DNA of 64,000 nucleotides. It comes from an uncultured virus (IMG/VR IMGVR_UViG_3300042564_004671). Taxonomy: Duplodnaviria; Heunggongvirae; Uroviricota; Caudoviricetes. Under the pieces are notes generated by a model. That model was not told the origin of the DNA, ran no database searches, and saw nothing but the letters and a program-made list of their open reading frames with translations. The stretch lies in the IMG/VR virus record IMGVR_UViG_3300042564_004671. One strand, written 5' to 3'. Positions 3,242-63,248 of the stretch are shown here, piece after piece; the stretch's first letter is position 1, and each line of letters begins with the position of its first letter. The translations under genes were made by a program, and so were the position numbers.

Positions 3242-3430
3242 CTATATATTAAATATAGATTTGATTCTTTCTTTTCTTATTCTAACTCTTTCATATTTAG
3301 AGTGAAGACTATGCCATTCCATTAAAGAAGCATTAATACTTGACTTACCAGTTTGTCTAGACTTCAACATAATCATATTTTTACCACTAAGTAATTGGCC
3401 AAAGACATCAAGAGTTTCTTTATTATCCAT
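3242..3430 (-). CDS. small protein: terminase Walker-A-like fragment + RxxKI tag
   Basis: MLKSRQTGKSS, then RKERIKSIF; start set at MDNKE, overlapping the upstream stop. Confidence 0.65.
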   Translation of the reverse strand: MDNKETLDVFGQLLSGKNMIMLKSRQTGKSSINASLMEWHSLHSKYERVRIRKERIKSIFNI

Positions 3431-3605
3431 AAATTCTTTTAATTTTTTCTTTTCGTCTTTCAATTTTATCTCTATACTTACGAGAATTAGACATTATTGT
3501 ATAAATTTCTTTACTAAATTTTTCTAAAATATTATTTTGATATTTAGATTTACTCTGATTTATCATACCAATATGATCCAATACAATAATATCTCTTTTA
3601 ATCAT
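3423..3605 (-). CDS. small protein: DnaB/gp4 helicase Walker-B-like fragment + RxxKI tag
   Basis: DIIVLDHIGMI...KFSKEI, then RKEKIKRIY. Confidence 0.55.
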   Translation of the reverse strand: MIKRDIIVLDHIGMINQSKSKYQNNILEKFSKEIYTIMSNSRKYRDKIERRKEKIKRIYG

Positions 3606-3837
3606 TTAATAGTTGGTCAATCTTATTATTTCTTTTTTCCGCTTTTTCTTTAGCCAAACGGATAGCCTTTCGTTCTTCAGATTCTTCTGTTAAATTTGTT
3701 GAGTTATAATAAACTCCAAGTTGGTCTATTAAGTCCTCATAGTTACTATATTTAGATTCAGATTTATCTAAACCATAAACCATATAATCACCATATTTAG
3801 TACCACCAAATATGTCTTTGTAATATTCTTCTTTCAT
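3598..3837 (-). CDS. small protein with RxxKI tag
   Basis: ends RNNKIDQLLND. Confidence 0.6.
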   Translation of the reverse strand: MKEEYYKDIFGGTKYGDYMVYGLDKSESKYSNYEDLIDQLGVYYNSTNLTEESEERKAIRLAKEKAEKRNNKIDQLLND

Positions 3838-4172
3838 TCTAATATATTTTTAATTTTCCAATCTCTTACATTTTCATAAAAATCAATAAAACTATTCATT
3901 CTATGATTCTGAATATTTTTGAATGATTCTATTTTATTAATAATATCATCAATCAATTCTTTTTCTTCAATTAATTGAGAACCATCTGAACCAGGATATC
4001 CTAACCAGATTTTAGGCTCCTTGTTCTTCCTACCATCTAAACAAATTTCAATTTCATCACTATTTAAATGATGGTCTGATAAGTATTTAGACCATTGTGG
4101 TCCACCTAAATTACATCTTAGAGAGATAGTTCCCCCGTCTCTATATGAGTCAAAACTTTTTATATTAAGCAT
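3834..4172 (-). CDS. small protein with RxxKI tag
   Basis: ends RDWKIKNILE. Confidence 0.6.
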   Translation of the reverse strand: MLNIKSFDSYRDGGTISLRCNLGGPQWSKYLSDHHLNSDEIEICLDGRKNKEPKIWLGYPGSDGSQLIEEKELIDDIINKIESFKNIQNHRMNSFIDFYENVRDWKIKNILE

Positions 4173-4173
4173 T

Positions 4174-4908
4174 TTAAATGTTTTTTAAATCATTTTTGAT
4201 TTTTTCCATACCGGTTGATGCCAATTCTTGGTAATGAGTAAATAAGTGTGTTCTATATTCTGGTATATAAAAATCAACATCTGATAAATCTACATAATAA
4301 ATAGAAGCACTTTCTTTGGTTAAGAATGGAATTGTGTTAGCAGGTGATACTTTCATTGAAGTTCCAACAACAATACAAACATCACATTCTTTAGCAGCAG
4401 TCGTAGCCATATCAACAAAATTTGGATCTAGATTTTCACCAAACCAAACAATATGAGGTCTTAATTGAGAACCAGTTGTTGGACATTTATCACCAATTTT
4501 AATTGGATTATATCCTATATCAATAACGGCATCTAATGGTGATGTTTTATGATCATACATACAACCTCTAGCCTTTGTTAACTCACCATGTAAGTGAATT
4601 ACATTAGTTGAACCAGATCTTTCGTGTAAATCATCGACATTTTGAGTCACAACGGTAACATCATAGTCTTTTTCTAATTCAGCAATTATTTTATGTGCCA
4701 AATTTGGTTCAACTTCATTCATTTGAGCACGTCTCATATTGTAGAAATTAAGAACTTTTTCTCTATCTCTACGCCACCCATCAGGGGTAGCAACATCTTC
4801 TATTCTGTGATTATACCAAAGCCCATCGTCTCCAGTTCTGAATGTAGCAACACCACTTTCAGCTGAAACTCCCGCTCCAGTAAAAATCAATACTTTTTTC
4901 TTTTCCAT
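4174..4908 (-). CDS. cobB: Sir2-family NAD-dependent deacylase
   Basis: TGAGVSAESGVATFR, PNLAH, TQNVDDLHERSG, HLHGEL, LRPHIVWFGE, VGTS. Confidence 0.95.
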   Translation of the reverse strand: MEKKKVLIFTGAGVSAESGVATFRTGDDGLWYNHRIEDVATPDGWRRDREKVLNFYNMRRAQMNEVEPNLAHKIIAELEKDYDVTVVTQNVDDLHERSGSTNVIHLHGELTKARGCMYDHKTSPLDAVIDIGYNPIKIGDKCPTTGSQLRPHIVWFGENLDPNFVDMATTAAKECDVCIVVGTSMKVSPANTIPFLTKESASIYYVDLSDVDFYIPEYRTHLFTHYQELASTGMEKIKNDLKNI

Positions 4909-4917
4909 AATATTTTA

Positions 4918-4948
4918 CAAATTTAATTAATTAAAGTTTAATATCAAA
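4918..4948 (-). promoter_or_regulatory. Bacteroidota housekeeping-sigma-type promoter
   Basis: TAAATTTG at 4918-4925 (-), TTTG about 19 nt upstream, 9 nt before the Sir2 start. Confidence 0.6.
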
Positions 4949-4963
4949 GAAACTCTTAATAAA

Positions 4964-4972
4964 TAATATATA
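4964..4972 (+). promoter_or_regulatory. putative late promoter TAATATATA
   Basis: 22 nt upstream of the 1496-aa gene; same 9-mer precedes more than 20 starts. Confidence 0.6.
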
Positions 4973-12500: not shown

Positions 12501-12867
12501 AAATCTATCAATGAATTTTAGTGGGTACGTTGGATATACTGTTCAATCAACTTTTAATTATGTAATAGATAACATTAAATTTATAGAGATTGATATGATT
12601 CCCTTTTTCCAGTATTTCGTTGAATCAAATATTAATAAAGGTATACAAATTCCTTTTCAAGGAATATCACCTTATATAGATTATAGTAATCCATTCTTTA
12701 ATTTCTTAGATAATATATCACTTGGTGTTAGCAGTATTGCTGTATCAAATTCAAATGTTGCAGTTAGTGGAGTAGGTGTTGGTGTTTCAACAAATAATCC
12801 ACCAGCAAATAATCCAGCAGGTGGATTATTTGAGACCGGAATAGGAACTGAGGGTCGAGGTGATTAG
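9529..12867 (+). CDS. large putative virion structural protein with WxxGx repeats
   Basis: 1112 aa; FKSGVWENGVWNSGW, WLSGAFFNGYFRGVWNYG; TAATATATA at 9513-9521. Confidence 0.6.
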   Translation: MSWNTSVSGISSADWRLTTIGTGGPTPIRMRVNSQVSPSKLTTLTYVSSTNYQFKSGKTYQFVTDVYYYMNNLNPNSASFSISTPIETVSNFQWDESLDYNKFKGTSPSILGTGTSVGRFPGITNSNFYFYATPPSDISTKNIIEYNANNKFGTASNTETISAGITNFNLSEMDYRIQGFAFYKWGDAPYSRAGTSSTFTGAYPQNGLGWTYDANYNSGELLHWYDDSQVNLNPVGGGRTTKIGSVGYRQNNYIAKFVPYTYFNFSFNYQNQHGDFPLEIYLSSTLPTNNPGSFSKPTNALLIGTLTQSISVIAGVTYSSRSYSIPHKFFSLEGGRYIYFKGPFVGTQSSATYSSIFITDIVVEGGYHPGNNEQYQTSNVTSIIPYGLIGATYSTYVGNGNTINATQSLSISQINANIGNGTFKSGVWENGVWNSGWRYDDSVQEFSKIYQYFTYNKSKRWRIQIEGPSDAVNSFEIGDKVSIGNIIAIDINENRKTIKGYFTIIAKTDFTIIVEFDNDFPLRRIEKDSDNHRIYVTKNVWLSGAFFNGYFRGVWNYGLFRGYPMITEMYDTHWVDGIFDGGHFNTSYYTVPKFVDTLFYPNETFGGRVGLTFSSKHGLAVGDTILVDKDNKNINPQYDGETTIDNVINDYHIVTALPWGNDSTSEGGTVSVTLSKGVVQKMQFKSKNRSKITSNQSLESTSVFIYDSWMDVNYYNTSAVNIGKPQSLVNTLSGKDYSENNLYGYPTNDVLESSSTFRDSFSTTIREYSLGTKYKIFNNYIGDAGNFQEQFGSTRDYNPIGTPTESVERNSSDSKFINLGWTYSRYNASSLTFSRTFDLGEEGVIGQELLVRAIGRGGILDIYPLTDDEIIANRTNDTIKKLRYTAIEFDLVSHSELLEDGGTFIESSVPTLPILTKKSLFPTGSQGGYPIPMLHFNNINTTLRNIYYSTLGAGGGTVSTIIPASYLPISSNVNHLSTSKKRKIEYFYNKKNLSMNFSGYVGYTVQSTFNYVIDNIKFIEIDMIPFFQYFVESNINKGIQIPFQGISPYIDYSNPFFNFLDNISLGVSSIAVSNSNVAVSGVGVGVSTNNPPANNPAGGLFETGIGTEGRGD

Positions 12868-13577: not shown

Positions 13578-13779
13578 AGAATCCTATATTTTTTAATTTC
13601 TCTTTCATTTCAGATTTGTTTTTTGTTAAACCAACAATATCACAAACTTGTTTTGAAATACCACCAGATTCTATTATAAGAGCATCCGGTTTTGTTACAT
13701 AGTTAATTAGATAATCCAATCCTTGTTTAGCGGCAGATTCTAAGTTTTCTAATTTGATATATCTTTTATTAAAGCTCAT
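13564..13779 (-). CDS. hypothetical protein
   Basis: 71-aa ORF in an overlapping-gene operon. Confidence 0.55.
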   Translation of the reverse strand: MSFNKRYIKLENLESAAKQGLDYLINYVTKPDALIIESGGISKQVCDIVGLTKNKSEMKEKLKNIGFYEFK

Positions 13780-13969
13780 TTTTATTCAGTATTTGTTCAA
13801 TTTTATAGTCTCTATTTTTTCTAAAGTTTATAATAGAGAATGATTCTTCAGATCTAAATCCACAATGTTTACAAATATAAACGAGTGGTTTTGGAATGTA
13901 TCCATAATTAGAAACAGGTTCTGAAAGACTTGTTTTAATATCAGTAGATTCACATTCTGGACAATTCAT
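13769..13969 (-). CDS. Zn-ribbon protein with RxxKI tag
   Basis: CPEC...CKHCG; RDYKIEQIL. Confidence 0.65.
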   Translation of the reverse strand: MNCPECESTDIKTSLSEPVSNYGYIPKPLVYICKHCGFRSEESFSIINFRKNRDYKIEQILNKNEL

Positions 13970-14259
13970 ATATCTAATATCTGATTAATTTTTTTTTCTC
14001 TTAAAATTGCTTTATTTGTTCTTTCAAATTCACCTCTTTCATCTTTATAACCACAATCATTACAAATACTTTGTGATGGAATAGTCGGTTTAGAACCATC
14101 GGTTGGTATAAAAAACTTCCATTTAATATTCTTACTTTTACAATTCGGACAACCTGATAAATCTTCTAAAGTTCCTATAAATCCTGACTTTTGTAATTTT
14201 CCTAAATCATATGTTTTATTACTTTGATTAGGAAACAAACTAAGTAATTTTTTAATCAT
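13966..14259 (-). CDS. Zn-ribbon protein with RxxKI tag
   Basis: CPNC...CNDCG; REKKINQIL. Confidence 0.65.
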   Translation of the reverse strand: MIKKLLSLFPNQSNKTYDLGKLQKSGFIGTLEDLSGCPNCKSKNIKWKFFIPTDGSKPTIPSQSICNDCGYKDERGEFERTNKAILREKKINQILDI

Positions 14260-15325: not shown

Positions 15326-16858
15326 ATGTTAAAAAGATACTTTGATTTTGTAAATGAATCTCTAAACTTAATACTAGAGTCCGATGTTGTTTATTCTAGT
15401 AAACTTAGAAATGTATTATCTAAAATAGATAGTGAAATCTCTAGAAAACTTATTGAGATAGAAAATAGAGACCTTCCAGTTAGAAGTAACTATTTTGATA
15501 TCATTTCAGATAAAAATGATATGGTTTCATTTATACCAGATAGAAAAGCTCAAGAAATACTTAAAGATGTTAAAGAATTCTGGAGATTCAATGGATCTGG
15601 CGGAGGTTGGTTAAAACACTCAGAATCAAATGCTGAATTGTTTTCTAAATTAGGATATGTTCCAGAAGGAAATCCTTATTCACCAAACTCAAGAGATATT
15701 GGTGAAATAGTTGCAGAAACTACTTCAGAAACATCTGGTAACACATATTGCTGGGTTAAATTCATGAATGGTACTGGAGAATATATTGGACAAGGAGTTT
15801 ATAATAAAGAAAAACTTATAAAAGCAGAAGGAATTAAAGAGAAAGAAGTTTGGACTAAAAGTAGACAAGAAATCGGTGTAGGTAGAGGAATTAGAGCTTT
15901 ATTATTAACAACTGGTGAAAAGTTTTTAGATAAAGATATTGAACAATTTGTTAATATTTATAAAGCAACAATTGATAAATTAAACGATAAGTTTAGTTTT
16001 TTTGAAGTTGTTAGTGGAACAGATATTCATTATTGGTATAATTATGATAATTATTACCAAAGAAGTGGATCATTAGGAAGTTCTTGTATGGCAAGTGCAA
16101 GAGCAAGTTGGTTAGAAATATACACTGCTAATCCAGAACAATGTTCAATGGTTATATTCAAATCACCAGATGATATTAATAAAATAGTTGGAAGAGCTAT
16201 CTTATGGACTTTAACAGATGGTAAAAAGTTCATGGATAGAATCTATACTATAAATGATTCAGATGTTCAGTTGTTTAGAGAATACGCTAAAGAAAATGGA
16301 TGGTATGCAAAATATCATAATAGTAGTACATCAAATTCCGATGCTTACGCACCAGATGGTACAAAAACAAACTTGAATTTAAGGGTTAATCTTTCTCAGA
16401 AAGACTACGACTATTTTCCTTATTTAGATACTTTAAAATATTTTACACCAGGAAGTGGAATATTAAATAACACTGATGGTGAATATGCACTCGAAGATAC
16501 TGGAGGTGGTCATTCATCTTGTGATTGTTGTGGTGGAAGTGGTAGAACTGAATGTGGTGATTGTGATGGAAGAGGAGTAGAAGACTGTAGTAATTGCGAT
16601 GGAAGTGGAAAAGAAGAATGCTCAGAATGTGATGGTAATGGGAAAAACACTTGTAATAATTGTGATGGTTCAGGAAAAGTAGAAGATGATGAAGGAAATG
16701 AGATTGATTGTGATGAGTGTGATGGAGATGGTGAATTAGAATGTGATGATTGTAATGGAAGAGGTAAAGTAGATTGTGATGAGTGTGATGGAGATGGTGA
16801 ACACGATTGTAATAGTTGTGGTGGAGATGGTGAAGTTGATTGTTACGAATGTAACTAA
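15326..16858 (+). CDS. protein with capsid-targeting-like leader, SCM/DRIY/PYLD domain and CxxCxGxG Zn-finger array
   Basis: MLKRYFDFVNE; GSLGSSCM, GRAILW, MDRIY, FPYLDT; 9 CxxCxGxG repeats plus a terminal CxxC. Confidence 0.7.
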   Translation: MLKRYFDFVNESLNLILESDVVYSSKLRNVLSKIDSEISRKLIEIENRDLPVRSNYFDIISDKNDMVSFIPDRKAQEILKDVKEFWRFNGSGGGWLKHSESNAELFSKLGYVPEGNPYSPNSRDIGEIVAETTSETSGNTYCWVKFMNGTGEYIGQGVYNKEKLIKAEGIKEKEVWTKSRQEIGVGRGIRALLLTTGEKFLDKDIEQFVNIYKATIDKLNDKFSFFEVVSGTDIHYWYNYDNYYQRSGSLGSSCMASARASWLEIYTANPEQCSMVIFKSPDDINKIVGRAILWTLTDGKKFMDRIYTINDSDVQLFREYAKENGWYAKYHNSSTSNSDAYAPDGTKTNLNLRVNLSQKDYDYFPYLDTLKYFTPGSGILNNTDGEYALEDTGGGHSSCDCCGGSGRTECGDCDGRGVEDCSNCDGSGKEECSECDGNGKNTCNNCDGSGKVEDDEGNEIDCDECDGDGELECDDCNGRGKVDCDECDGDGEHDCNSCGGDGEVDCYECN

Positions 16859-17268
16859 TCTATAACTTGATTAATTTTCTTATCTCTTATAAATGATCTA
16901 TATATCTGGAAATATTCAGATTTCTCAGATGCTATTGTTTCTTCAAAATTACTATAATTTAGTTCAATTTCAATTGAAAGTGGTATAAAATTACCATACC
17001 AATCAAAACAATCATTTTGTATTTTTACAATAGTGGATGAATTAAATATACTAAGAACCTTAAATTGATCAAAAATTATAATTGTTCTTTTATCAAAAAC
17101 ATCAATAGGATCATTGGTATACTTATTCATCCATTCTTTGAAAAATCGGATAGAATTTTCACAATTTGTAGTAACCTTTATATAAGACCTACCTGTTTCA
17201 GATACCATATTAACTTTAGATATCTCACCTATAACATTTAATCCATTTTTGTCATCTATTAAAATCAT
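16855..17268 (-). CDS. protein with weak tail-tube(gp19)-like features + RxxKI tag
   Basis: FFKEW...KRTIII...IEIELNYSNF; ends RDKKINQVID. Confidence 0.45.
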   Translation of the reverse strand: MILIDDKNGLNVIGEISKVNMVSETGRSYIKVTTNCENSIRFFKEWMNKYTNDPIDVFDKRTIIIFDQFKVLSIFNSSTIVKIQNDCFDWYGNFIPLSIEIELNYSNFEETIASEKSEYFQIYRSFIRDKKINQVID

Positions 17269-17555
17269 ATACCTAAATCTTTTAGTTTTATTTGTCTATT
17301 TATATTTTTAAGACATAATGAATAATCATAAATACTACAATTGTAAACTTGTTTACAATAATCATCTATTATTTTATCGCAAGTATTCCAATCAATAAAC
17401 TCACCATCGGGTATTAATATATTAAATATTTCTTTTGATTTAATACGCTCTTTATCTCTAGCAATAGCAGCCTTCTCATATTTTTGACAAAAAATAGCTT
17501 CTTGCTTTTCTTTCATAGCTTTAAGATATTCTATAATTAAATTATCAATTTTCAT
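17265..17555 (-). CDS. UVR (UvrB/C, ClpC-type) coiled-coil protein + RxxKI tag
   Basis: KQEAIFCQKYEKAAIARDKER; ends RQIKLKDLGI. Confidence 0.65.
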   Translation of the reverse strand: MKIDNLIIEYLKAMKEKQEAIFCQKYEKAAIARDKERIKSKEIFNILIPDGEFIDWNTCDKIIDDYCKQVYNCSIYDYSLCLKNINRQIKLKDLGI

Positions 17556-20374: not shown

Positions 20375-20560
20375 TCACCAGATTTGTGGGAAGTTAGTTG
20401 GTCCTTTTGGAGTAGAAGTTATAATAACATTAGGAACATCTATTCCAAATATTTTACCTATTTTTATTTTTCTTAAATATCTTTTAGAATATTCAACACC
20501 TGATGTATCTTTTTCAATGAAGTGAATACCTGGTCTCACATATCTACCTATTCTGTTCAT
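20375..20560 (-). CDS. small protein: RxxKI tag + terminase coupling-motif fragment
   Basis: RKIKIGKIFG followed by VIITSTPKGPTNFPQIW; start set at MNRIG. Confidence 0.65.
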   Translation of the reverse strand: MNRIGRYVRPGIHFIEKDTSGVEYSKRYLRKIKIGKIFGIDVPNVIITSTPKGPTNFPQIW

Positions 20561-21041
20561 TTGATTTCTTCTTTTTACTTCTTCTTGTTTTCTTGTGAGT
20601 TTTAGATGATTCAGCTCCATATTTATAATCTAAATAGAATAAAGTACCTGATGGAGCAGACATTGGAGTTACTCCTTTTTTCATCAACTCTTTATATTCT
20701 TCATCATCTTCTAACTTCTTTTCAGTAAATTCACCACCTTCAATAACAGCTTCAATTTTACCATCACGATTTTCAGAATTTACTCTACTTTTTACATCAT
20801 CAATTTCTTCTTTTGATGCGAATCCTATTATTTCATTGGACATTAATTTTGATGATACTTTCATAGCCATTGGTAGTAAACTTGGAAACTCTTCAGTTTT
20901 AGTTTCTTCTAATATTTGATTTGATTGATTTTCGGCTAACTGAGCTAAATTGTCTAATTGAGATCCAGTCATACCCATAGACCCTAAGATAGGAGCCCAT
21001 TTTTTCATTAATTCTTCTTTATTTGGTTGTTTCATAAACAA
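20544..21041 (-). CDS. major-capsid (gp23) N-terminal fragment with inserted RxxKI tag
   Basis: KKWAPIL..ENQ..LLPMAMKV..[RDGKIEAVI]..VTPMSAPSGTLFYLDYKY. Confidence 0.7.
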   Translation of the reverse strand: MFMKQPNKEELMKKWAPILGSMGMTGSQLDNLAQLAENQSNQILEETKTEEFPSLLPMAMKVSSKLMSNEIIGFASKEEIDDVKSRVNSENRDGKIEAVIEGGEFTEKKLEDDEEYKELMKKGVTPMSAPSGTLFYLDYKYGAESSKTHKKTRRSKKKKSNEQNR

Positions 21042-40791: not shown

Positions 40792-40822
40792 CAAAGATAA
40801 TAAAACTTATGATAGTTGCCAA
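40792..40822 (-). promoter_or_regulatory. Bacteroidota-type promoter
   Basis: TATCTTTG at 40792-40799 (-), TTG about 20 nt upstream. Confidence 0.55.
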
Positions 40823-41421
40823 GACATTTGACCGAAAATTTGAGTTAAATCTTCATTATGTTTACGGGATGTTGAACTATAAACTTTTGTATTAATAGCC
40901 ATATTCAACTTATAATCCATTATTTCTAAAGGATTGTGAACTTTAAGTTTTTTCCCATTGAAGTCAAATATTATAAAAGAAGCATTATTATCATTATGAA
41001 AGAAATCAACTTTATATTCTTTGTATTTAGGGAATAATTGTAATTTCTCGATACTAATTAAAGGTTTCTTTTTATATTTAAAATCAACATATCCTAATCT
41101 ATTAGGTGTTGAAAATTCATCATCATATCCGTCTTTAGAATACTTAGAATATCGATTTTTATCATCAATAAGAATATCAATATCATTTGTATCTCTGTAT
41201 ATGAGACCAAGAATATTTAGAGCTAATGAACCACTGATGATATCATTGGGAAATTCATCTGAAATAAAGTAAAGTAAATCTTTGTATTTCTCTTTCAAAG
41301 TAGGTTTGAAATCAATCTCACCATTGAGAACTTTCAGTTTATAATCTCTGAACTCTGTTTGTAACTCAGTAGGAGTTAAATAGTTGGTATGTACCGTACC
41401 TAAACGATATGAATTTGCCAT
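40807..41421 (-). CDS. nucleotidyltransferase-fold protein with N-terminal RxxKL tag
   Basis: ISGSLAL...RDTNDIDILI, VDFF, RKHNEDL; FRDYKLKVL near the N-terminus. Confidence 0.7.
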   Translation of the reverse strand: MANSYRLGTVHTNYLTPTELQTEFRDYKLKVLNGEIDFKPTLKEKYKDLLYFISDEFPNDIISGSLALNILGLIYRDTNDIDILIDDKNRYSKYSKDGYDDEFSTPNRLGYVDFKYKKKPLISIEKLQLFPKYKEYKVDFFHNDNNASFIIFDFNGKKLKVHNPLEIMDYKLNMAINTKVYSSTSRKHNEDLTQIFGQMSWQLS

Positions 41422-41683: not shown

Positions 41684-42079
41684 TTATTTTCTAGATTCCA
41701 AAATATCACCAATAGTTGTTTTAGAATAACCTATCATTTTTTCAACCCCTAAGATATGATTAATTCTTTTTTGTCTTAAAACATCTTTTGGATAAACAGA
41801 GTTTAAATCAATCAACCGACCAGTTGAATAAGTATGCTTAGTTACTCTGATACCTCTTTTACTCACATACTCAACATATTTTGGTTGAAATTCTTCTGGT
41901 AGGTATTCATAACCAACACATTCATATCCATTACAATAATATCTACCACAATCACAATTCCAATAATAGTAATCATCATCGTAATCATCATCCCAATAAC
42001 CCCAATAGTAATCACTACCAAGTTCAGCCTTGGTTATTATCTTATCAAGAATTTCTGTTCTATTTTTTCTCAGTGCCAT
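41684..42079 (-). CDS. hypothetical protein with RxxKI tag
   Basis: Y/D/W-rich N-terminus; RQKRINHILG. Confidence 0.6.
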   Translation of the reverse strand: MALRKNRTEILDKIITKAELGSDYYWGYWDDDYDDDYYYWNCDCGRYYCNGYECVGYEYLPEEFQPKYVEYVSKRGIRVTKHTYSTGRLIDLNSVYPKDVLRQKRINHILGVEKMIGYSKTTIGDILESRK

Positions 42080-42467
42080 TTATTAATTCGCTTAATCTCC
42101 AATCCCTGATGTTGATTTTGAAATCATCAAAAGAATGAGAATTTGACATTATATCTATTCTTGTATTTATTTCTTTTATTAAGTCACTTATTTCCATATC
42201 TCTATTTCTACATTGACCATCATAAACACATTCAATACTTGTTTTATTAGAAGCTAATATCCACATAGTAATATTTGAGTAAATATCAAACATTCGTTTT
42301 ACTTGTGCTAAATACTCTTCAGCAGATTGTCTAGACTTACCAGATACATCAACATGAACGGTAAAGATAGGATTATTTAAATTTAGTTCAATTTTTTCTG
42401 GAGCAACACCATATGAGTGAGTAAATGGATTGTTATTTATAGCATTTTGAAGATTTTGAAAAGACAT
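42060..42467 (-). CDS. portal(gp20)-like fragment + RxxKI-type tag
   Basis: IFTVHVDVSGKSRQSAEEYLAQVKRMF; RDWRLSELI. Confidence 0.5.
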   Translation of the reverse strand: MSFQNLQNAINNNPFTHSYGVAPEKIELNLNNPIFTVHVDVSGKSRQSAEEYLAQVKRMFDIYSNITMWILASNKTSIECVYDGQCRNRDMEISDLIKEINTRIDIMSNSHSFDDFKINIRDWRLSELINGTEKK

Positions 42468-43886: not shown

Positions 43887-44507
43887 TTATTTATTAAAAG
43901 TTTTTTCATAAACATTCCTAATGGCTTTTATACCATTTGGTTGAATCTCTCTTGTTCCTATACCCGCAAAATTTTGAGAAGTTATAGAAGGAACATCTTT
44001 CATTTCAACAAATTGAAGAGTTGAGTAAGACCATCTAAACCACTTATCTCTAACTTGATCAAATACAAATACTTCTTTTTTATTATTTATACCCATCATT
44101 ACTGCATATCCGGTACCACCATCGACAATATCAAATTCACCTTTATTGTAATATCCTTTTGAATTTTTGTGACCAGATTTAATAATTGTGCTAATTGCAA
44201 ATATTTGATCCGAGTATTTCACTTGAGACCAATTACGAGCTAGCAAATTCATATACTTATGAATTCCATATCTATTTAGAAACTTATTTGCTTTATTAAC
44301 TTCAATAACACCTTCATTATAATCATCATCTGAAATTTCAACTTTATTAGGTGATGTGTGTTTAGGTGTTTTATGAGAGTAGGCTCTGGTAGTAACATCA
44401 TAGGTAACTCCTTCGTTTTCCCAGACGGTATCCGCTCCGACTGCACCACCAGAATGACAAACTACTTTTGTCAAGTCAATGGGTTTTTTATCAAAAATAT
44501 CAATCAT
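43887..44507 (-). CDS. SLOG-superfamily (DprA/MoCo-carrier-like) protein
   Basis: HSGGAVGAD, LARNWSQV, GGTGYAV, FAGIGTR. Confidence 0.75.
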   Translation of the reverse strand: MIDIFDKKPIDLTKVVCHSGGAVGADTVWENEGVTYDVTTRAYSHKTPKHTSPNKVEISDDDYNEGVIEVNKANKFLNRYGIHKYMNLLARNWSQVKYSDQIFAISTIIKSGHKNSKGYYNKGEFDIVDGGTGYAVMMGINNKKEVFVFDQVRDKWFRWSYSTLQFVEMKDVPSITSQNFAGIGTREIQPNGIKAIRNVYEKTFNK

Positions 44508-44754
44508 TTAGTATTTTGTTTATTAAAAATTCTCTCTTTATCGATAAATCCTTTTCAAAAAATAGATTTATCGAATTTTCTCCACTAAAAGAGCTATAGA
44601 TATTCAATTTATATTTACAATCTTGATAATGTTTATCTAAGTATTTAATTATTAAATATCTAGCATCATCTATATTGGTTACTTTATCACTATACGGAAC
44701 ATCAAAACTCTCCACTAAGTTTTTATTAGTTTCTAAATAAATATTTATCATCAT
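44500..44754 (-). CDS. small protein with RxxKI-type tag
   Basis: ends KREFLINKILND. Confidence 0.55.
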   Translation of the reverse strand: MMINIYLETNKNLVESFDVPYSDKVTNIDDARYLIIKYLDKHYQDCKYKLNIYSSFSGENSINLFFEKDLSIKREFLINKILND

Positions 44755-45618: not shown

Positions 45619-45948
45619 TTAGTTTAATACCTGTTTTATTTTTTCGTCTCTTTGATAAGCTTTATAATCTTCTCCTTCCGTGATAAAATATTCTGACATT
45701 TCTTGTTCAGTAAAATAATACCACTTTATTCTCTCACTATATGGTAAATTCCACCAATCTTTTCTACCAGAATGATATCCATGTTGATCATCTTCAACAC
45801 AAAAACCATATCCTTTTCTACCATTAACTTCTGGATCAGCATTAAATTCTAAATTACCTCTTCCTTTGATATCATAATGACTACCAACTTTAATAGTTTT
45901 GTATTCTTTGACACAAACAACTCTTTGACAATCCCATCTATCTTCCAT
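45619..45948 (-). CDS. small protein with RxxKI tag
   Basis: ends RDEKIKQVLN. Confidence 0.6.
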   Translation of the reverse strand: MEDRWDCQRVVCVKEYKTIKVGSHYDIKGRGNLEFNADPEVNGRKGYGFCVEDDQHGYHSGRKDWWNLPYSERIKWYYFTEQEMSEYFITEGEDYKAYQRDEKIKQVLN

Positions 45949-46105
45949 CGAATAGTTTTTTAATTTTATATTTTCTAGCTTTTATAACATTAACTCTACA
46001 TCTTAACTTGGATAACTCTGAGTAAACATCAGTTACATTCATAGCACCGTAGCTCGAGTTCAAAATCATCTTGTAATAAGCTAATTTACTTTCTAATTCT
46101 CTCAT
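45938..46105 (-). CDS. unlisted 55-aa ORF: DNA polymerase B motif-B fragment + RxxKI tag
   Basis: MRELESKLAYYKMILNSSYGAMN...ARKYKIKKLFDGR; ATGA overlap with the upstream gene. Confidence 0.7.
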   Translation of the reverse strand: MRELESKLAYYKMILNSSYGAMNVTDVYSELSKLRCRVNVIKARKYKIKKLFDGR

Positions 46106-46719: not shown

Positions 46720-46733
46720 AGGATTTAAAATAA

Positions 46734-46758: not shown

Positions 46759-46776
46759 CTAATTTTTTTCAGATTT

Positions 46777-47541: not shown

Positions 47542-47642
47542 AATATAAGTAATTTTTTATAACATATATATTATTTTTCTAAATATATTTTTCATCAAAC
47601 TATCATTTTTTAGATATATAAACTATAAAAAAATCGTATTTA

Positions 47643-53930: not shown

Positions 53931-53965
53931 AAAACCCTCTGAATTAATTTTCAGAGGGTTTTTTT
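53931..53965. terminator. bidirectional intrinsic terminator
   Basis: aaaaccctctgaa-ttaatt-ttcagagggtttt. Confidence 0.8.
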
Positions 53966-54420
53966 GTTGACGTATAAATAGTTCTGTATATAGAAATACA
54001 CCAATAAATAATATTTAAACCACCATAGACTAAATATAAACTTAAATTCATTCCAAAAAGCTTAAATACTATATCTAAAATGATAAAAAAACAAACAGAT
54101 ATTAAAAAATACCTATTTAGTTTATCAAATTTTTGAGTGACTACAAATTTTTGAAATTTATACTTTATAATTAAGTAAGGATGTTGTAATAAAGATATTT
54201 TTCTATCTCTACTACAAGGTATGCAGATTTTTGAATAATCCTCTGATTTCATCAATCTTTCGAAAGTTTCTTTTTCAGATAAGTTCAAATCATCTTTGCA
54301 ATTATAGCATATTTTACCTTTTTTTATCTCCCAACTTAATGAGTTTCTTTTTTTCAAAATTAAAATTTGAAAAAAAACAAAAAATATGGGTAAAAAACAA
54401 TATATGATTGAAAACATCAT
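53944..54420 (-). CDS. membrane protein with Zn-binding CxxC pair and RxxKI tag
   Basis: 3 TM segments; CYNC...CIPC-SRDRKISLL. Confidence 0.6.
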   Translation of the reverse strand: MMFSIIYCFLPIFFVFFQILILKKRNSLSWEIKKGKICYNCKDDLNLSEKETFERLMKSEDYSKICIPCSRDRKISLLQHPYLIIKYKFQKFVVTQKFDKLNRYFLISVCFFIILDIVFKLFGMNLSLYLVYGGLNIIYWCISIYRTIYTSTKKPSEN

Positions 54421-54869
54421 CCTAAAATTAATTTTAAAAAATTATCTCTCTTATCCATCTTAGATAAAGACTTAACACACTCTGGCCCTAAACCATTTAA
54501 GATACTAGAAGGTACAGTAAGTGTTCTACCACATTTACCACATTTACCCTCGTGCCAAGCTTCAATGAAGTCAGGTAGAGTATTTGTTTTTAGTTTATTA
54601 AGAACATACTCAAATACTTTAACGGATTGAGCATCTTTAGAAATTGCTGATTTTTTACCATGTCTATAGATACCTTCAATACAAGTACCAATATAGGAAT
54701 ATGTTTCAGGACCCGTCAAAACACTAATAAAAAACATATTAGAGTCTTTGGCTTGTTTTACTTTGAATGTAAAACGATTTCCTGTTTTTGAGTTAAGTAA
54801 TGTAACAAGTGATTTACCTGCAAAGATAAATTTAAGTGCTTCTGAGTTATTTAATTTATGTCCTTCCAT
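54417..54869 (-). CDS. DUF6011-like protein with tag-like C-terminus
   Basis: TGNRFTFKV, HEGKCGKCGRTLTVPSSILNGLGPEC; KRDNFLKLILG; TATATTTG at 54889-54896. Confidence 0.75.
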   Translation of the reverse strand: MEGHKLNNSEALKFIFAGKSLVTLLNSKTGNRFTFKVKQAKDSNMFFISVLTGPETYSYIGTCIEGIYRHGKKSAISKDAQSVKVFEYVLNKLKTNTLPDFIEAWHEGKCGKCGRTLTVPSSILNGLGPECVKSLSKMDKRDNFLKLILG

Positions 54870-60670: not shown

Positions 60671-61102
60671 ATGAAAAAAGCGTATGTTATTTTAAAAAAA
60701 GGATTTGAGTATGATGATAACATCTACAATGAATCAGATGGTGGTACACCAAATCTAATTGTATTTTCTAAAGAAGATGCTCAATTAAAAGTAAATGAAT
60801 TAAATATTCAAGAATTAAAAAATTGTTCAATATCAGAATACTCATATGATATGGAAGATATTCTTAATGTAGAAATTGATGAATATGATAAATTCAACGA
60901 ATCTCTAAATACCAAGTATGGTAAACCAGAATCTAAAAATAGATGGGATTCATTTGAGAATAAACTACATCCAATGGCTAATGAAGAAGAAGCTAATCAA
61001 TATGTTAAAATGGTTTCTATTAGTTTTTACGAGGCTGTTGAAACGGATATTGATGTTCAATCTCTTAGAGAAAAACAAGTTTCTAGTATTTTAGACAAGT
61101 AA
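60671..61102 (+). CDS. hypothetical protein with tag-like C-terminus
   Basis: ends LREKQVSSILDK. Confidence 0.55.
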   Translation: MKKAYVILKKGFEYDDNIYNESDGGTPNLIVFSKEDAQLKVNELNIQELKNCSISEYSYDMEDILNVEIDEYDKFNESLNTKYGKPESKNRWDSFENKLHPMANEEEANQYVKMVSISFYEAVETDIDVQSLREKQVSSILDK

Positions 61103-61581: not shown

Positions 61582-61610
61582 TATATACTACATAAAAATA
61601 AAATATTAAA

Positions 61611-62177
61611 ATGAAAAGATTTTCAGATATTAAAAAAGTAAAAGTTAAAAAAATCAACGAAGCCGAAGGTGAATCAAATTTACCTTCAAACTACGAAGAT
61701 ATGTCAAAAGAAGAACTTTTAGCTCTTATGTCAGGTAAAAAAGAACAACCTGAACCAGAAAAGAAAGAAGAAGAAAAGAAAGAAGTATCTAACGAAGGTG
61801 GTGATGTTTCTAAATTCATCTCTAAATTGTTAGAAAGTAGAGAGATGGCTCAAGTTTATCACTGGACGGTTAAAGGTGATATGGGTTCACACGCAGCTCA
61901 CTTAGCATTAGAAGCTTACTACAGTGGTGTTATTGAATTTATTGATGATATCGTTGAGGTTTATCAAGGTCAATATGGTTTAATTGAAGGATATGATCAA
62001 ATTGCTACAGATGAAACAAGATCTAAAGATAAATTGGATTACTTCAAAGAAGTTGTTGAATTTGTTAAATCAGAAAGAAGTTGCATTAAAGTAGAAGATA
62101 CACACTTACATACTATAATAGATGAGGTTGTAGTTCTTATTTACAAAACAATCTACAAATTAACTTACAATAAATAA
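61611..62177 (+). CDS. ferritin/Dps-like four-helix protein with leader
   Basis: QVYHW...HAAHLALEAYY...DDIVEVYQGQYG...IIDE; TAATATATA at 61579-61587. Confidence 0.65.
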   Translation: MKRFSDIKKVKVKKINEAEGESNLPSNYEDMSKEELLALMSGKKEQPEPEKKEEEKKEVSNEGGDVSKFISKLLESREMAQVYHWTVKGDMGSHAAHLALEAYYSGVIEFIDDIVEVYQGQYGLIEGYDQIATDETRSKDKLDYFKEVVEFVKSERSCIKVEDTHLHTIIDEVVVLIYKTIYKLTYNK

Positions 62178-62178
62178 A

Positions 62179-62727
62179 ATGAAACACATTAAAAAACATC
62201 CTATTAATGATAAAGCTCAGAAGCTTTCAAAGGATATAAAAAAACAAGATCATAGTAAACCAGCATCAAAAAAGAAATTAGACGCTGATAAATCTTTAAG
62301 TGATCCTGAGGTTTCAATGAAGGTAACTAAACCATCAAATAAAAAATTAAATGGTGAAAAGTTTTTATCTAACCCTACAATCAATACTAAAAAGCCTAAT
62401 AAACCTTCTAATAAAAATTTAGATGGTGAGAAGTTCTTAGCAGAAGGACTTAATCATTTAAAAAGATTCAATGAAGAATTCGATTCAAGTGGATATCAAT
62501 CACACTGGACTAAATTTGCTCAATGGTTATGGGAAAAAGACTTTGAATTATATGGTGGTGGAGAAGACCTTCACAATAAATTTATGGAAGTATCTAATGA
62601 TGATAACTTATCATCAGAAGATAAAGCTAGTCAAATTACAAATTATTTAGATGAAAAATGGGGAGTCTATGATGGATATATGTCAGTATATAATTATTTA
62701 GAATCTTTATTCATGGATGAAATTTAA
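62179..62727 (+). CDS. basic repeat domain + internal leader + acidic domain
   Basis: KPSNKKLNGEKFL-type repeat x3; internal LNHLKRFNEE. Confidence 0.6.
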   Translation: MKHIKKHPINDKAQKLSKDIKKQDHSKPASKKKLDADKSLSDPEVSMKVTKPSNKKLNGEKFLSNPTINTKKPNKPSNKNLDGEKFLAEGLNHLKRFNEEFDSSGYQSHWTKFAQWLWEKDFELYGGGEDLHNKFMEVSNDDNLSSEDKASQITNYLDEKWGVYDGYMSVYNYLESLFMDEI

Positions 62728-62729
62728 CT

Positions 62730-62758
62730 AAAATCCCACTTAATAAGTGGGATTTTTT
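62730..62758. terminator. bidirectional intrinsic terminator
   Basis: aaaatcccactta-a-taagtgggatttt. Confidence 0.75.
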
Positions 62759-62997
62759 ATTTCTATAGTTCCGTAAAAGTTATTATTTATAATCTTTTTA
62801 GAGTATCTACTCATAATTGATTTACTTGGTGAGAATTCATCTTTAACATCTAAACCTAAACCAAATATCTTATTAATCTTTCTTTTTCTACTTACATTCT
62901 TAGAAGTATATCCAGATATAACAGAAGTGGTTGTCAATGGAATATAAGGAGCAAAAACATAACCTTGTTCTAAATTACTTTTCTTTCCTATTATCAT
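62740..62997 (-). CDS. major-capsid (gp23) C-terminal fragment with inserted RxxKI tag
   Basis: QGYVFAPYIPL..[RKRKINKIFG]..FSPSKSIMSRYSKKIINNNFYG. Confidence 0.7.
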   Translation of the reverse strand: MIIGKKSNLEQGYVFAPYIPLTTTSVISGYTSKNVSRKRKINKIFGLGLDVKDEFSPSKSIMSRYSKKIINNNFYGTIEIKNPTY

Positions 62998-63133
62998 TGA
63001 ATATTTTTTTAATTTTTTCTTTTCTTTTATCTTTTCTAAGAAAAGAACTTAAAAAGTTCATAGAAGAATAGTCATGTAATCTACTTCCAGGTCCACCTAG
63101 TACAACATTCCACTCATCTCTCGCTTTTATCAT
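62975..63133 (-). CDS. unlisted 52-aa ORF with RxxKI tag
   Basis: MIKARDEWNVVLGGPGSRLHDY...RKEKIKKIFND. Confidence 0.55.
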   Translation of the reverse strand: MIKARDEWNVVLGGPGSRLHDYSSMNFLSSFLRKDKRKEKIKKIFNDNRKEK

Positions 63134-63248
63134 ATAATCTTTTGATTTTATTTTTTCTCTTTTCAGATCTTTCTTTTTTAGACCATCTGAAAATTGAATC
63201 TGTTATAGACTCTTGAAACTCTTTTGATTGATTTTCCCAAATTGACAT
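63114..63248 (-). CDS. unlisted 44-aa ORF with RxxKI tag
   Basis: MSIWENQSKEF...KRKNKIKRLYD. Confidence 0.55.
   Translation of the reverse strand: MSIWENQSKEFQESITDSIFRWSKKERSEKRKNKIKRLYDKSER

What the first reader, a model, noticed from the sequence alone, without database searches (positions are those of the whole stretch)
3242..63248. Shared R-x-x-K-I-x-x-I/L tag on about 22 otherwise unrelated small proteins
Instances, by ORF left coordinate: RKERIKSIF (3242), RKEKIKRIY (3423), RNNKIDQLL (3598), RDWKIKNIL (3834), RDYKIEQIL (13769), REKKINQIL (13966), RDKKINQVI (16855), RQIKLKDLG (17265), RKIKIGKIF (20375), RDGKIEAVI (20544), RDYKLKVLN (40807), RQKRINHIL (41684), RDWRLSELI (42060), REFLINKIL (44500), RDEKIKQVL (45619), RKYKIKKLF (45938), RDRKISLLQ (53944), RDNFLKLIL (54417), REKQVSSIL (60671), RKRKINKIF (62740), RKEKIKKIF (62975), RKNKIKRLY (63114). 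Most lie within about 12 residues of the C-terminus, and all but one are on the minus strand. The cargo domains vary: Zn ribbons, UVR, NTase, a membrane protein, DUF6011-like and core-protein fragments. The DNA encoding the tag is not conserved, so selection appears to act on the peptide. Inference: a docking motif for one hub protein, giving a modular adaptor library.
Basis: partly seen in the sequence, partly recalled or inferred. Interest (0 to 1): 0.88.

Follow-up and report, generated by a model that had tools for sequence, protein, structure and literature searches.

The report
Shared peptide tag on giant-phage proteins
About one in five proteins encoded in this stretch of a giant lake-water phage ends in the same short helical peptide, a selected "address label" whose reader is still unknown and which is also attached to tiny copies of pieces of the phage's own core proteins.

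Summary
All 22 peptides are in the named ORFs. A strict form of the motif occurs 15 times in the last 20 residues of 210 proteins of this 175.7-kb contig, against 0.08-0.14 in shuffles. It is frame-specific. Its codons drift while the residues stay. It is kept in orthologues.

A whole clade of huge T4-like lake phages carries it: 173 of 984 proteins in the 634.8-kb relative LR745206.1.

New here: there are two tag classes.
- RD-type, R-[DEN]-x-K-[IL]-x-x-[ILV]-[LIVM], sits on proteins of about 120 aa with no known domain.
- RK-type, R-K-x-K-I-x-[KNR]-[IL]-[FY], sits on micro-proteins of about 56 aa. Several of these are pieces of the terminase, capsid protein or tail sheath.

A sister clade uses a diverged tag, and two more distant relatives lack it.

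The best reading is a modular docking helix for one shared reader. No reader was identified. The leading candidate, on weak grounds, is the phages' own Clp protease, whose unfoldase lacks the usual N-domain.

Earlier notes of this scan describe the same tag on other DNA. Five paper searches found no description of it.

The parts
3242..3463 (-). 73-aa micro-protein: copy of the terminase Walker-A segment plus an RK-type tag (tag nt 3251-3277, RKERIKSIF, 2 residues after)
   Evidence: The body aligns to the contig's own large terminase, residues 96-130, 36% identity over 39 aa, pairwise E 8e-4. An orthologue lies in LR745206.1. Matrix score 15.1.
3423..3605 (-). 60-aa micro-protein with an RK-type tag (nt 3429-3455, RKEKIKRIY, 1 after); body unassigned
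   Evidence: (score 13.9).
3598..3837 (-). 79-aa protein with an RD-type tag (nt 3607-3633, RNNKIDQLL)
   Evidence: score 25.0. The orthologue's tail is EKRNSVIDKIL.
3834..4172 (-). 112-aa protein with an RD-type tag (nt 3840-3866, RDWKIKNIL)
   Evidence: score 17.4.
13769..13969 (-). 66-aa zinc ribbon with an RD-type tag (nt 13787-13813, RDYKIEQIL, 5 after)
   Evidence: score 19.2. This is the only body with a paralogue, 13966.
13966..14259 (-). 97-aa zinc ribbon with an RD-type tag (nt 13975-14001, REKKINQIL)
   Evidence: score 26.9.
16855..17268 (-). 137-aa protein with an RD-type tag (nt 16861-16887, RDKKINQVI)
   Evidence: score 22.2.
17265..17555 (-). 96-aa UVR-like four-helix protein ending in the -LGI variant of the tag (nt 17271-17297, RQIKLKDLG)
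   Evidence: The relative's copy (h296085) matches the phage ClpC-like protein there, E 6e-7. R87, L91, G95 and I96 are invariant in 12 homologues. AF2 mean pLDDT 93.5; the tag lies in helix 78-93.
20375..20620 (-). 81-aa ORF that aligns weakly to a stretch of the relative which I read as tail sheath, with an RK-type tag inserted (nt 20447-20473, RKIKIGKIF, 23 after)
   Evidence: tblastn alignment to LR745206.1 171813-171962, E 0.014, with a gap exactly at the tag. Score 17.7. The 'sheath' label is my recalled reading of the P-G-I/V-x-x-E-E motif and was not tested.
20544..21041 (-). 165-aa mimic of the capsid protein N-terminus with an inserted tag-like segment (nt 20742-20768, RDGKIEAVI)
   Evidence: Aligns with the N-termini of both capsid proteins; the insert is kept in the orthologue as RDRKIDSIT. 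Matrix score 8.3, below threshold.
40807..41421 (-). 204-aa protein with a tag-like site near its N-terminus (nt 41323-41349, RDYKLKVLN)
   Evidence: Score 10.9, borderline. Kept in the orthologue as RDLKLSVIG.
41684..42079 (-). 131-aa protein with the tag 21 residues from its end (nt 41750-41776, RQKRINHIL)
   Evidence: Score 13.0. The orthologue has RERKIDQIL at the same place.
42060..42467 (-). 135-aa protein with an RD-type tag (nt 42081-42107, RDWRLSELI)
   Evidence: The orthologue is tagged with RNWRLGELL.
44500..44754 (-). 84-aa protein with an RD-type tag (nt 44509-44535, REFLINKIL)
   Evidence: score 19.2.
45619..45948 (-). 109-aa mostly beta protein with an RD-type tag (nt 45625-45651, RDEKIKQVL)
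   Evidence: score 24.9. Orthologues end either ...QVLN or ...LGI. AF2 mean pLDDT 67, C-terminal helix 91-107.
45938..46105 (-). 55-aa micro-protein carrying K-x3-N-S-x-Y-G and an RK-type tag (nt 45950-45976, RKYKIKKLF)
   Evidence: The reading as family-B polymerase motif B is recalled and comes from scan note e1-5648667; I did not test it against a parent polymerase.
53944..54420 (-). 158-aa protein with hydrophobic segments and a weak internal site (nt 54184-54210, RDRKISLLQ)
   Evidence: Score 7.9, below threshold. The orthologue has RDEKINLVS. Membership is doubtful.
54417..54869 (-). 150-aa DUF6011 protein ending in a tag variant (nt 54423-54449, RDNFLKLIL)
   Evidence: PF19474 E 5.4e-12. 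The PHROG profile match ends at residue 135. 119 of the 120 closest cluster representatives keep it.
60671..61102 (+). 143-aa protein with an RD-type tag (nt 61067-61093, REKQVSSIL); the only plus-strand case
   Evidence: score 14.3.
62740..62997 (-). 85-aa copy of the capsid protein C-terminus with an RK-type tag mid-chain (nt 62863-62889, RKRKINKIF)
   Evidence: Weak Gp23 match. The relative's 75-aa orthologue lacks the insert and carries the tag at its C-terminus; its body matches the capsid protein at E 4e-6.
62975..63133 (-). 52-aa micro-protein with an RK-type tag (nt 62999-63025, RKEKIKKIF)
   Evidence: score 16.8. The syntenic 50-aa counterpart in the relative (E 0.11) ends in RKEKIEKIF.
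63114..63248 (-). 44-aa micro-protein with an RK-type tag (nt 63132-63158, RKNKIKRLY)
   Evidence: score 16.5.

Best explanation
The motif is a real, portable peptide module of about 13 residues. Its pattern is hydrophobic/K at -4, then x, x, hydrophobic at -1, R, [DEN or K], x, K, [IL], x, x, [ILV], [LIFY].

If it forms a helix, every conserved residue (-4, R0, K3, I4, I7, L8) falls on one face. This is inferred from the spacing. Both AF2 models place it in a C-terminal helix.

I read it as a docking or 'address' tag. Many unrelated small phage proteins would use it to plug into one shared reader. It usually sits 0-7 residues from the C-terminus, often behind a variable linker.

It comes in two co-varying flavours. 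The RD-type sits on ~120-aa proteins of no known family. The RK-type sits on ~56-aa micro-proteins, several of which are copies of signature pieces of the phage's own terminase, capsid protein and probably sheath and polymerase.

Shown: the tag exists, is translated-frame specific, is under purifying selection as a peptide, can move within a protein, is clade-wide, and has diverged in a sister clade.

Inferred: It consists of a ClpC-type unfoldase without an N-domain but with the VGF ClpP-docking loop, plus ClpP copies. In that case tagged proteins would be substrates or SspB-like adaptors.
For: Enrichment:
- 15 hits against 0.08-0.14 expected.
- 91 hits against 1.2 expected in LR745206.1.
- 173 of 984 proteins by matrix.
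- 104 of 1878 proteins in 80 IMG/VR loci, against a null of 7 of 5634.

Peptide-level selection:
- Frame-specific, 16 hits against at most 1, and 92 against at most 4.
- At the five core positions 46% of orthologous codons differ. Of the changed ones, 56% are synonymous, 40% conservative and 4% radical. In the linker the figures are 32%, 25% and 44%.

Conservation:
- 8 of 8 BLAST orthologues are tagged.
- 16 of 18 unique members of a family down to 24% identity are tagged, and 18 of 18 of another.
- 119 of 120 DUF6011 relatives keep it.
- R is found in 172 of 173 tags.

Modularity: the tag moves between mid-chain and C-terminus in one gene family, and is inserted into capsid and sheath fragments. 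The -IL[ND] and -LGI endings swap among orthologues.

Two classes: position 1 against position 8 gives Fisher p 6.9e-5 and 4.6e-8. Median lengths are 56 against 123.5 aa, and 61 against 117 aa.

Divergence: LR756504.1 uses [YH]-R-K-x-I-I-x-[DE]-L-[LI] on 51 of 212 proteins. Samples of LR756501.1 and LR756500.1 gave 0 of 126 and 0 of 144.

Clp lead:
- ClpS is present in the three tag-bearing records and in neither of the two without the tag.
- ClpC without an N-domain, plus ClpP, occurs in both complete tag-bearing genomes.
- The ClpC-like protein has a VGF loop.
- One tagged protein copies the ClpC UVR segment.

The AF2 models put the tag in a C-terminal helix.
Against: - No reader was found.
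- The Clp link rests on five related records. Two of them were judged for the tag on 100-kb samples only.
- This contig, which I take to be a fragment, has ClpS but no ClpC or ClpP.
- The phage ClpS keeps the N-degron residues (N-D-D and H), so it is not itself a likely reader of a C-terminal tag.
- In the high-confidence model of the UVR protein the tag helix is part of a compact four-helix fold (pLDDT 93.5). At least there it may be an ordinary structural helix.
- Tagged genes overlap or abut the next gene more often than small untagged ones, 14 of 22 against 12 of 64. An added mRNA-level constraint on the last codons is therefore not excluded.
- Counts over orthologues are not phylogenetically independent.
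Confidence: 0.55

Rival explanations
1. The tag is a plain degradation signal, a timer. Tagged, mostly early-type, proteins are cleared by a host or phage AAA+ protease that reads the tail directly at its pore. No adaptor or delivery role is involved.
For: The tags sit at or near the C-terminus, with 103 of 173 having 1-2 residues after L8. The phages encode ClpC-like and ClpP proteins. The basic-then-hydrophobic make-up recalls the MuA-type ClpX signal, which I cite from memory.
Against: The distance to the C-terminus varies from 0 to 16 residues, and functional-looking internal copies exist: 10 observed against 2.3 expected. Recognition of a free carboxylate is therefore unlikely. An invariant Arg and a one-sided helix pattern look more like groove docking. 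This rival overlaps the best explanation rather than excluding it.
Confidence: 0.15
2. The tag is a capsid-targeting or packaging signal. It binds the scaffold, portal or capsid interior so that tagged proteins are loaded into the huge head and injected.
For: Several RK-type micro-proteins copy head components: the capsid N-terminus, middle and C-terminus, and the repeats of the protease-scaffold protein. T4 loads internal proteins through a short shared peptide; this is recalled.
Against: T4's signal is N-terminal and is cleaved off. Up to 173 different proteins per genome would need packaging. Terminase- and polymerase-like fragments and two helicases also carry the tag. No virion proteome exists.
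Confidence: 0.1
3. The tag is a self-association or structural helix. It caps or completes small folds, or joins tagged proteins to each other, without a dedicated reader.
For: In the UVR protein the tag helix packs into a confident four-helix fold. In the 109-aa protein it continues a C-terminal helix.
Against: Thirteen conserved residues are short for a stand-alone coiled coil. A near-invariant Arg (172 of 173) across unrelated folds, including zinc ribbons, beta domains and capsid fragments, is not expected of generic packing. The tag also follows variable acidic linkers.
Confidence: 0.1
4. The tag is an amphipathic helix that targets the membrane or nucleic acid, like the C-terminal membrane-targeting helices of MinD or FtsA. 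The RK-type is the stronger case.
For: RK-type tags carry 3-5 basic residues alternating with I, I and F/Y. Their form recalls MinD-type tails, which I cite from memory.
Against: RD-type tags are near neutral. Arg is not exchanged for Lys at position 0 (172 of 173). On a helix, Arg sits in the middle of the hydrophobic face.
Confidence: 0.07
5. The pattern is a by-product at the DNA or RNA level. One version: an A/U-rich translation-initiation region for the overlapping downstream gene. Another: leftover sequence from a single ancestral gene family.
For: Tagged genes overlap or abut the next gene in 14 of 22 cases, against 12 of 64 for small untagged genes. The residues after L8 (ND*, DI*, E*, GI*) contain the next gene's ATG. 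In LR756504.1 many tagged genes look like paralogues with longer shared tails.
Against: The motif is frame-specific. Changes at core codons are synonymous or conservative. Tags are followed by stem-and-T-run, terminator-like sequence at 109944 and 128702 (read by eye; no terminator scan was run). Six of 22 tagged genes have gaps over 30 nt. Internal copies exist. Only 1 related pair was found among 28 bodies.
Confidence: 0.03

Closest known systems
MIM helices of ESCRT-III proteins docking on the MIT domain of the AAA+ ATPase Vps4 (recalled; the MIT domain was only the top, non-significant fold hit, E 1.1)
   Same: A short C-terminal amphipathic helix with a conserved Arg and spaced Leu/Ile, carried by several different proteins, plugs into one hub ATPase.
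   Different: No MIT domain or ESCRT proteins were seen here. The phage ClpC-like protein starts with about 40 acidic/Ser-rich residues that I read as disordered. The sequence pattern differs. The scale is far larger, 10-18% of a proteome.
Clp adaptor tails and degrons: the SspB C-terminal ClpX-binding peptide, and the ssrA and MuA-type tails (recalled)
   Same: A variable body, a flexible linker and a short C-terminal peptide. The phages that carry the tag encode Clp parts.
   Different: The known tails bind the unfoldase N-domain or pore. The phage ClpC-like proteins lack an N-domain. No binding has been shown, and the sequences are unlike.
Clamp-binding C-terminal tails of T4 gp43, gp55 and gp33, and PIP boxes (recalled)
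   Same: Position at the extreme C-terminus. The hydrophobic spacing h-x-x-a-a matches I4-x-x-I7-L8. Many client proteins share one ring-shaped hub.
   Different: The polymerase piece and the gp55-like protein here do not end in the tag. No gp45-type clamp was found by Pfam in this contig or in LR745206.1. A tagged 56-aa ORF does overlap the end of the gp55-like gene.
Poxvirus ankyrin proteins with a C-terminal PRANC/F-box-like motif (recalled)
   Same: A large viral family of varied binder proteins shares a short C-terminal module that docks on one host degradation hub.
   Different: That is a eukaryotic ubiquitin system. Those bodies are all ankyrin repeats, whereas here the bodies are unrelated. 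The hub here is unknown.
T4 capsid-targeting sequence of internal proteins (recalled)
   Same: A short shared peptide addresses unrelated phage proteins to one place.
   Different: T4's peptide is N-terminal and removed by the prohead protease. The tag here is C-terminal or internal and shows no cleavage motif.
Inhibitory protein fragments (PMC11831152; I saw the search listing and the start of the abstract only)
   Same: Fragments of a protein can bind its native interfaces and inhibit it. This is a possible logic for the RK-type micro-proteins.
   Different: Those fragments were made in the laboratory. Here they are natural, conserved genes joined to a shared tag.

Membership tests
T4-type clamp-binding tail / PIP box | Hydrophobic plug at the extreme C-terminus with h-x-x-a-a spacing | tested here: met
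   I/L at +4, I/L/V at +7 and L/I/F at +8. Of 173 tags, 117 have at most 2 residues after +8.
T4-type clamp-binding tail / PIP box | Present on the replicative polymerase and the late sigma factor | tested here: not met
   The 509-aa PolB piece and the 121-aa gp55-like protein end without it. None of the 37 unique relatives' loci examined shows gp55 fused to the tagged ORF.
T4-type clamp-binding tail / PIP box | A sliding clamp encoded by the phage | tested here: inconclusive
   PF02916 and PF09116 found nothing in G000 or LR745206.1 at E up to 10. A divergent clamp could be missed. A clamp loader is present.
Clp adaptor tail or degron | A cognate Clp unfoldase and ClpP available | tested here: met
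   LR745206.1 has a 701-aa ClpC-like protein with a VGF loop and two ClpP genes. LR756504.1 has the same kind of set. This contig has ClpS only.
Clp adaptor tail or degron | Unfoldase N-domain that receives adaptor tails | tested here: not met
   The ClpC-like proteins of both tag-bearing genomes begin just before the first AAA module.
Clp adaptor tail or degron | Tag-dependent binding or degradation | not testable with these tools
T4 capsid-targeting sequence | N-terminal position followed by a prohead-protease cleavage site | tested here: not met
   Tags are C-terminal or internal.
SHOCT domain (PF09851) | Match to the Pfam model | tested here: not met
   No tagged window protein matches. 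The only SHOCT hit is the untagged 337-aa protein at 36169-37182.
MinD/FtsA-type membrane-targeting helix | C-terminal amphipathic basic helix without need for a specific residue | tested here: inconclusive
   The form fits RK-type tags, but Arg at position 0 is kept in 172 of 173 tags.
One paralogous gene family | Sequence similarity outside the motif | tested here: not met
   Only 1 related pair among 28 bodies at E below 1e-3.

The most novel reading that the evidence does not exclude
These phages run a targeted-degradation system of their own. Some 100-170 tagged small proteins per genome act as binders whose shared tag delivers whatever they hold to the phage's N-domain-less ClpC-ClpP protease.

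The RK-tagged micro-proteins are baits. Each shows one signature piece of a core phage protein: terminase Walker A, capsid, sheath or polymerase. Host sensors are reported to recognise exactly such core proteins (abstract of bioRxiv 10.64898/2026.01.04.697583). The baits would hand those sensors over for destruction or sequestration.
Probability: 0.12. Interest if true: 0.95.

Novelty: new variant of a known kind. Interest (0 to 1): 0.8.

Why it matters
Shared short docking peptides organise much of eukaryotic cell biology but are barely known in phages.

Here one peptide marks 10-18% of the proteins of a whole clade of the largest known phages. Almost all of those proteins lack any known domain.

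The tagged micro-copies of terminase, capsid and sheath pieces are an unreported design. They point to mimicry in assembly control, in phage-phage conflict or in evasion of host sensors.

The tag, which has diverged between sister clades, also offers a handle for finding a co-evolving reader.

Tried and rejected
- Hub by complex prediction. I did not resend it. A window-only job (DnaJ-like protein, 663-aa ankyrin protein and the last 43 residues of the 13966 protein) returned 'no answer', score 0.00. That is evidence neither way.
- Sliding clamp as hub. No clamp was found by Pfam or by PHROGs at loose thresholds. The conserved 240-aa candidate is RuvC-like. The PDB sequence search and the Atlas search on it were uninformative.
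- ClpS as reader. Rejected, since it keeps the N-degron pocket residues.
- DnaK and DnaJ. Present in tagged and untagged relatives alike.
- gp55 plus tagged ORF as one frameshifted gene. The split is the same in the 25 of 37 unique relatives' loci that have the second ORF; 12 lack it and none shows a fusion. This leaves the question unresolved.
- Fold search of the UVR protein model. No match at E up to 0.001.
- Expression. One RNA-library run holds contigs 90-95% like parts of 41500-47600, for example 44160-44814. Contigs from an RNA library do not prove transcription.
- timed out and was rerun.
- Papers. Five searches found no description of the tag or of tagged core-protein fragments. Supplements were not opened.

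Full report
**What the window is.** The window is bases 79-64078 of a single 175,660-bp virus contig with about 28% G+C. It encodes a T4-type capsid protein, portal, large terminase and head protease. It also carries a clamp loader, a UvsX-like recombinase and half of a family-B polymerase, and many unusual extras:
- ribosomal protein bS21;
- a DnaJ-like protein;
- ClpS;
- Sir2;
- PhoH;
- a Ro60-like protein;
- an RNase II/R-type enzyme.

The capsid protein is 73-74% identical to those of two 'uncultured phage' records of 634,780 and 642,428 bp. It is 29% identical to that of the Lak megaphages. The capsid search matched 233 IMG/VR stretches, and the contigs of the 80 kept loci range up to 385 kb. 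I therefore take the contig to be a fragment of a huge phage, although CheckV's figure is 85% complete. Near-identical DNA occurs in more than 20 lake-water metagenome runs.

**The observation.** Sixteen are followed by 1-7 residues and six are internal.

I called genes greedily, taking the longest non-overlapping ORFs of at least 38 aa. This gave 210 proteins covering 95% of the contig. In these, the strict pattern R..K[IL]..[ILV][LFYI] occurs 15 times in the last 20 residues. Shuffling whole proteins gave a mean of 0.08, and shuffling only the tails gave 0.14; no shuffle exceeded 2.

The motif appears only in the gene's reading frame: 16 hits against at most 1 in each of the other five frames.

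A position matrix built solely from the relative LR745206.1 of the 84 window proteins tagged and passes 20 of the 22 claimed sites. Internal sites above threshold number 10, against 2.3 expected. Some internal copies are therefore real. The strand bias follows gene orientation, since 59 of the 84 genes are on the minus strand.

**Peptide, not DNA.** Codons for the conserved residues vary: ATT, ATA, ATC, CTA, TTA and GTT are all used. At the five core positions, 46% of aligned codons differ from this contig's codon. Of the changed ones, 56% are synonymous, 40% stay within a residue class and 4% are radical. In the 21 residues upstream the figures are 32%, 25% and 44%. These counts are not phylogenetically independent.

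The one or two residues after the tag (ND*, DI*, E*, GI*) often hold the ATG of the next, overlapping gene. Tagged genes overlap or abut their neighbour in 14 of 22 cases, against 12 of 64 for small untagged genes. The mRNA thus constrains the very end. It cannot account for the motif, because tags also precede stem-and-T-run, terminator-like sequence and occur mid-chain.

**Range.** I fetched LR745206.1 whole.
- The strict pattern occurs 91 times in the tails of 984 proteins, against 1.2 expected.
- The matrix of 984 proteins tagged.
- None of the 84 C-terminally tagged proteins of at least 115 aa has a Pfam match at E up to 1e-4. Of 14 with an internal copy, two match, and both are helicases.
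- In 80 IMG/VR loci around the capsid gene, 104 of 1878 proteins are tagged, against a null of 7 of 5634.

Conservation in orthologues:
- All 8 BLAST-detected orthologues of this contig's tagged proteins are tagged.
- tblastn adds further orthologues or syntenic counterparts, several at weak E-values, for 3242, 3598, 20544, 41684, 54417, 62740, 62975 and 90863.
- In one family that has drifted to 24% identity, 16 of 18 unique members keep the tag behind a variable acidic linker. In another family, 18 of 18 keep it.

More distant relatives, 100 kb read from each:
- LR756504.1 (capsid 53% identical) carries a diverged tag, [YH]-R-K-x-I-I-x-[DE]-L-[LI], on 51 of 212 proteins.
- LR756501.1 gave 0 of 126.
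- LR756500.1 gave 0 of 144, though about 10 of its proteins end in N-A-D-D-F-G-F-F.

**Two classes.** Position 1 and position 8 of the tag co-vary. K at position 1 goes with F/Y at position 8, and D/E/N goes with L/I/V/M. Fisher p is 6.9e-5 here and 4.6e-8 in the relative.

RK-type tags sit on micro-proteins with a median of 56 aa here and 61 aa in the relative. RD-type tags sit on proteins with medians of 123.5 and 117 aa.

Where an RK-type body can be placed, it is a piece of a core phage protein:
- 3242 aligns to the contig's own terminase around Walker A, 36% identity over 39 residues.
- 62740 and its relative copy the capsid protein C-terminus.
- A 71-aa gene outside the window copies Gp23 profile positions 132-185.
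- 20375 aligns to a region of the relative that I read as tail sheath, with the tag filling a gap in the alignment. The sheath label is recalled.
- A micro-protein in the relative holds about three and a half of the 14-residue repeats of the protease-scaffold protein.
- 45938 carries K-x3-N-S-x-Y-G. I know this, from memory and from scan note e1-5648667, as polymerase motif B. I could not compare it with a parent, because the polymerase's second half is not on this contig.

Among RD-type or tag-like cases:
- 20544 mimics the capsid protein's N-terminus, with a tag-like insert.
- A 249-aa protein is a capsid paralogue.
- 17265 is a UVR-type helical protein like the middle segment of the phage ClpC-like protein.

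**Anatomy.** Written on a helical wheel (my inference), positions -4, 0, 3, 4, 7 and 8 fall within one half-turn arc, with the Arg in its centre. This suits a helix that lies in a groove.

AF2 places the tag in a C-terminal helix in both models. The 109-aa protein's model is weak, with mean pLDDT 67. The UVR protein's model is strong, with pLDDT 93.5 and pTM 0.83. In that model the tag helix is the fourth helix of a compact bundle. This fits either a structural role there or a tag that folds back on a UVR hairpin. No significant fold match was found.

**Who reads it?** This remains unknown.

The clearest lead is the phages' own proteostasis set. LR745206.1 has two ClpP genes and a 701-aa ClpC-type protein. 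That protein has no N-domain but does have a UVR segment and the VGF loop that, from memory, ClpC uses to dock on ClpP. LR756504.1 has the same kind of set, plus a ClpX-like gene inside its array of tagged genes.

ClpS occurs in the three tag-bearing records and in neither record without the tag. LR756501.1 has a ClpB-like protein with an N-domain but no ClpP. LR756500.1 has ClpP only. Of five larger IMG/VR contigs of the clade, three hold the ClpC-like gene and three hold ClpP.

This is a correlation over a few related, partly sampled genomes. ClpS itself keeps the N-degron pocket. DnaK and DnaJ do not discriminate. No clamp was found, and the polymerase piece and the gp55-like protein are untagged. 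A tagged 56-aa ORF does overlap the end of the gp55-like gene in this contig and in 25 of the 37 unique relatives' loci examined.

**Comparison with the known.** What it works like:
- MIM helices on Vps4;
- SspB-type tethering tails;
- clamp-binding tails;
- poxviral PRANC motifs.

It passes no membership test for any of these (see the table).

Iyer and colleagues (PMC7824862; passages read) note ClpP and ClpS in jumbo phages but mention no tag. The abstract of Lee et al. (bioRxiv 10.64898/2026.01.04.697583) lists capsid protein, portal, tail parts, DNA polymerase and others as targets of bacterial STAND sensors. That makes a bait role for the micro-proteins thinkable, but it is untested.

Five full-text searches found no description of the tag.

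Earlier notes of this scan report the same tag and tagged capsid, terminase and polymerase mini-genes in related megaphages on other DNA. I treated them as leads and re-tested the central claims here.

**Verdict.** The docking-tag reading is the best supported but unproven. The hub is unidentified.
- the split into two co-varying tag classes;
- the diverged tag of a sister clade;
- the codon-level and frame tests;
- the co-occurrence with an N-domain-less ClpC, ClpP and ClpS set.

Noticed in passing
G000 contig, window-scale coordinates 128702-129209 (outside the window; L005:4783-5287): A 121-aa gp55-like late sigma factor lacks the long C-terminal part of T4 gp55. It is overlapped by 29 nt, in the +1 frame, by a 56-aa ORF that ends in an RK-type tag and is followed by stem-and-T-run, terminator-like sequence. 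The arrangement recurs in 25 of the 37 unique relatives' loci examined and is never fused.
   Followed up: partly
LR756500.1, loci L108 and L109: About ten proteins of 127-369 aa, six of them in a row, end in H-L-x-N-A-D-D-F-G-F-F-D-N. This is a different shared C-terminal motif in a more distant huge phage (9 proteins against 0.09 expected for N...FG).
   Followed up: partly
LR756504.1 1-50000 (L104): A dense array of 70-110-aa genes nearly all end in the diverged tag. Many share a longer F-x-T-[LI]-x-E-[YH]-R-K tail, which suggests paralogue expansion. A ClpX-like gene without a zinc-finger N-domain lies inside the array, at about 37.9-38.5 kb.
   Followed up: partly
G000 117782-119899 on the window scale (L004:9863-11977): The head maturation protease is a 705-aa protein. 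Its C-terminal extension is a run of 14-residue repeats (Y-S-E-Y-L-A-E-N-L-D-K-N-I), probably a fused scaffold.
   Followed up: partly
window 45618-45957: One contig from an RNA-library run of a related strain joins 45618 to 45957 with 11 other letters between. That strain therefore lacks the tagged 109-aa gene, so the gene is dispensable or variable.
   Followed up: no
window 19702-19980: A 92-aa ORF ends ...DDRFKKIEFILGEKI.
   Followed up: no
window 20009-20344: A 111-aa GIY-YIG-type (T5orf172/MUG113) gene sits between capsid- and sheath-fragment mini-genes. It is conserved in the relative at 56% identity.
   Followed up: no
window 49797-50741: Two adjacent genes of 167 and 143 aa share a near-identical C-terminal stretch, K-N-F-E-N-I-K-E-S-L-T-I-E-S-[FL]-K. 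It is unrelated to the tag.
   Followed up: no
G000 85237-86766 on the window scale (L002:9318-10844): The family-B DNA polymerase gene covers only the exonuclease and the start of the polymerase domain (509 aa). The second half is not on this contig, so the polymerase is split or the contig is incomplete.
   Followed up: no
G000 82647-84314 on the window scale, and LR745206.1 120830-122440: Two different SF2 helicases carry a strong internal tag-like segment (RDLKINKVI and RDKKIDHIL). The first is conserved between the two phages.
   Followed up: partly
window 14252-14443 and 12864-13577: Phage-encoded ribosomal protein bS21 and a DnaJ-like protein (J domain plus zinc-finger region) sit in the same small-gene cluster as several tagged genes. 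The order is kept in LR745206.1.
   Followed up: partly
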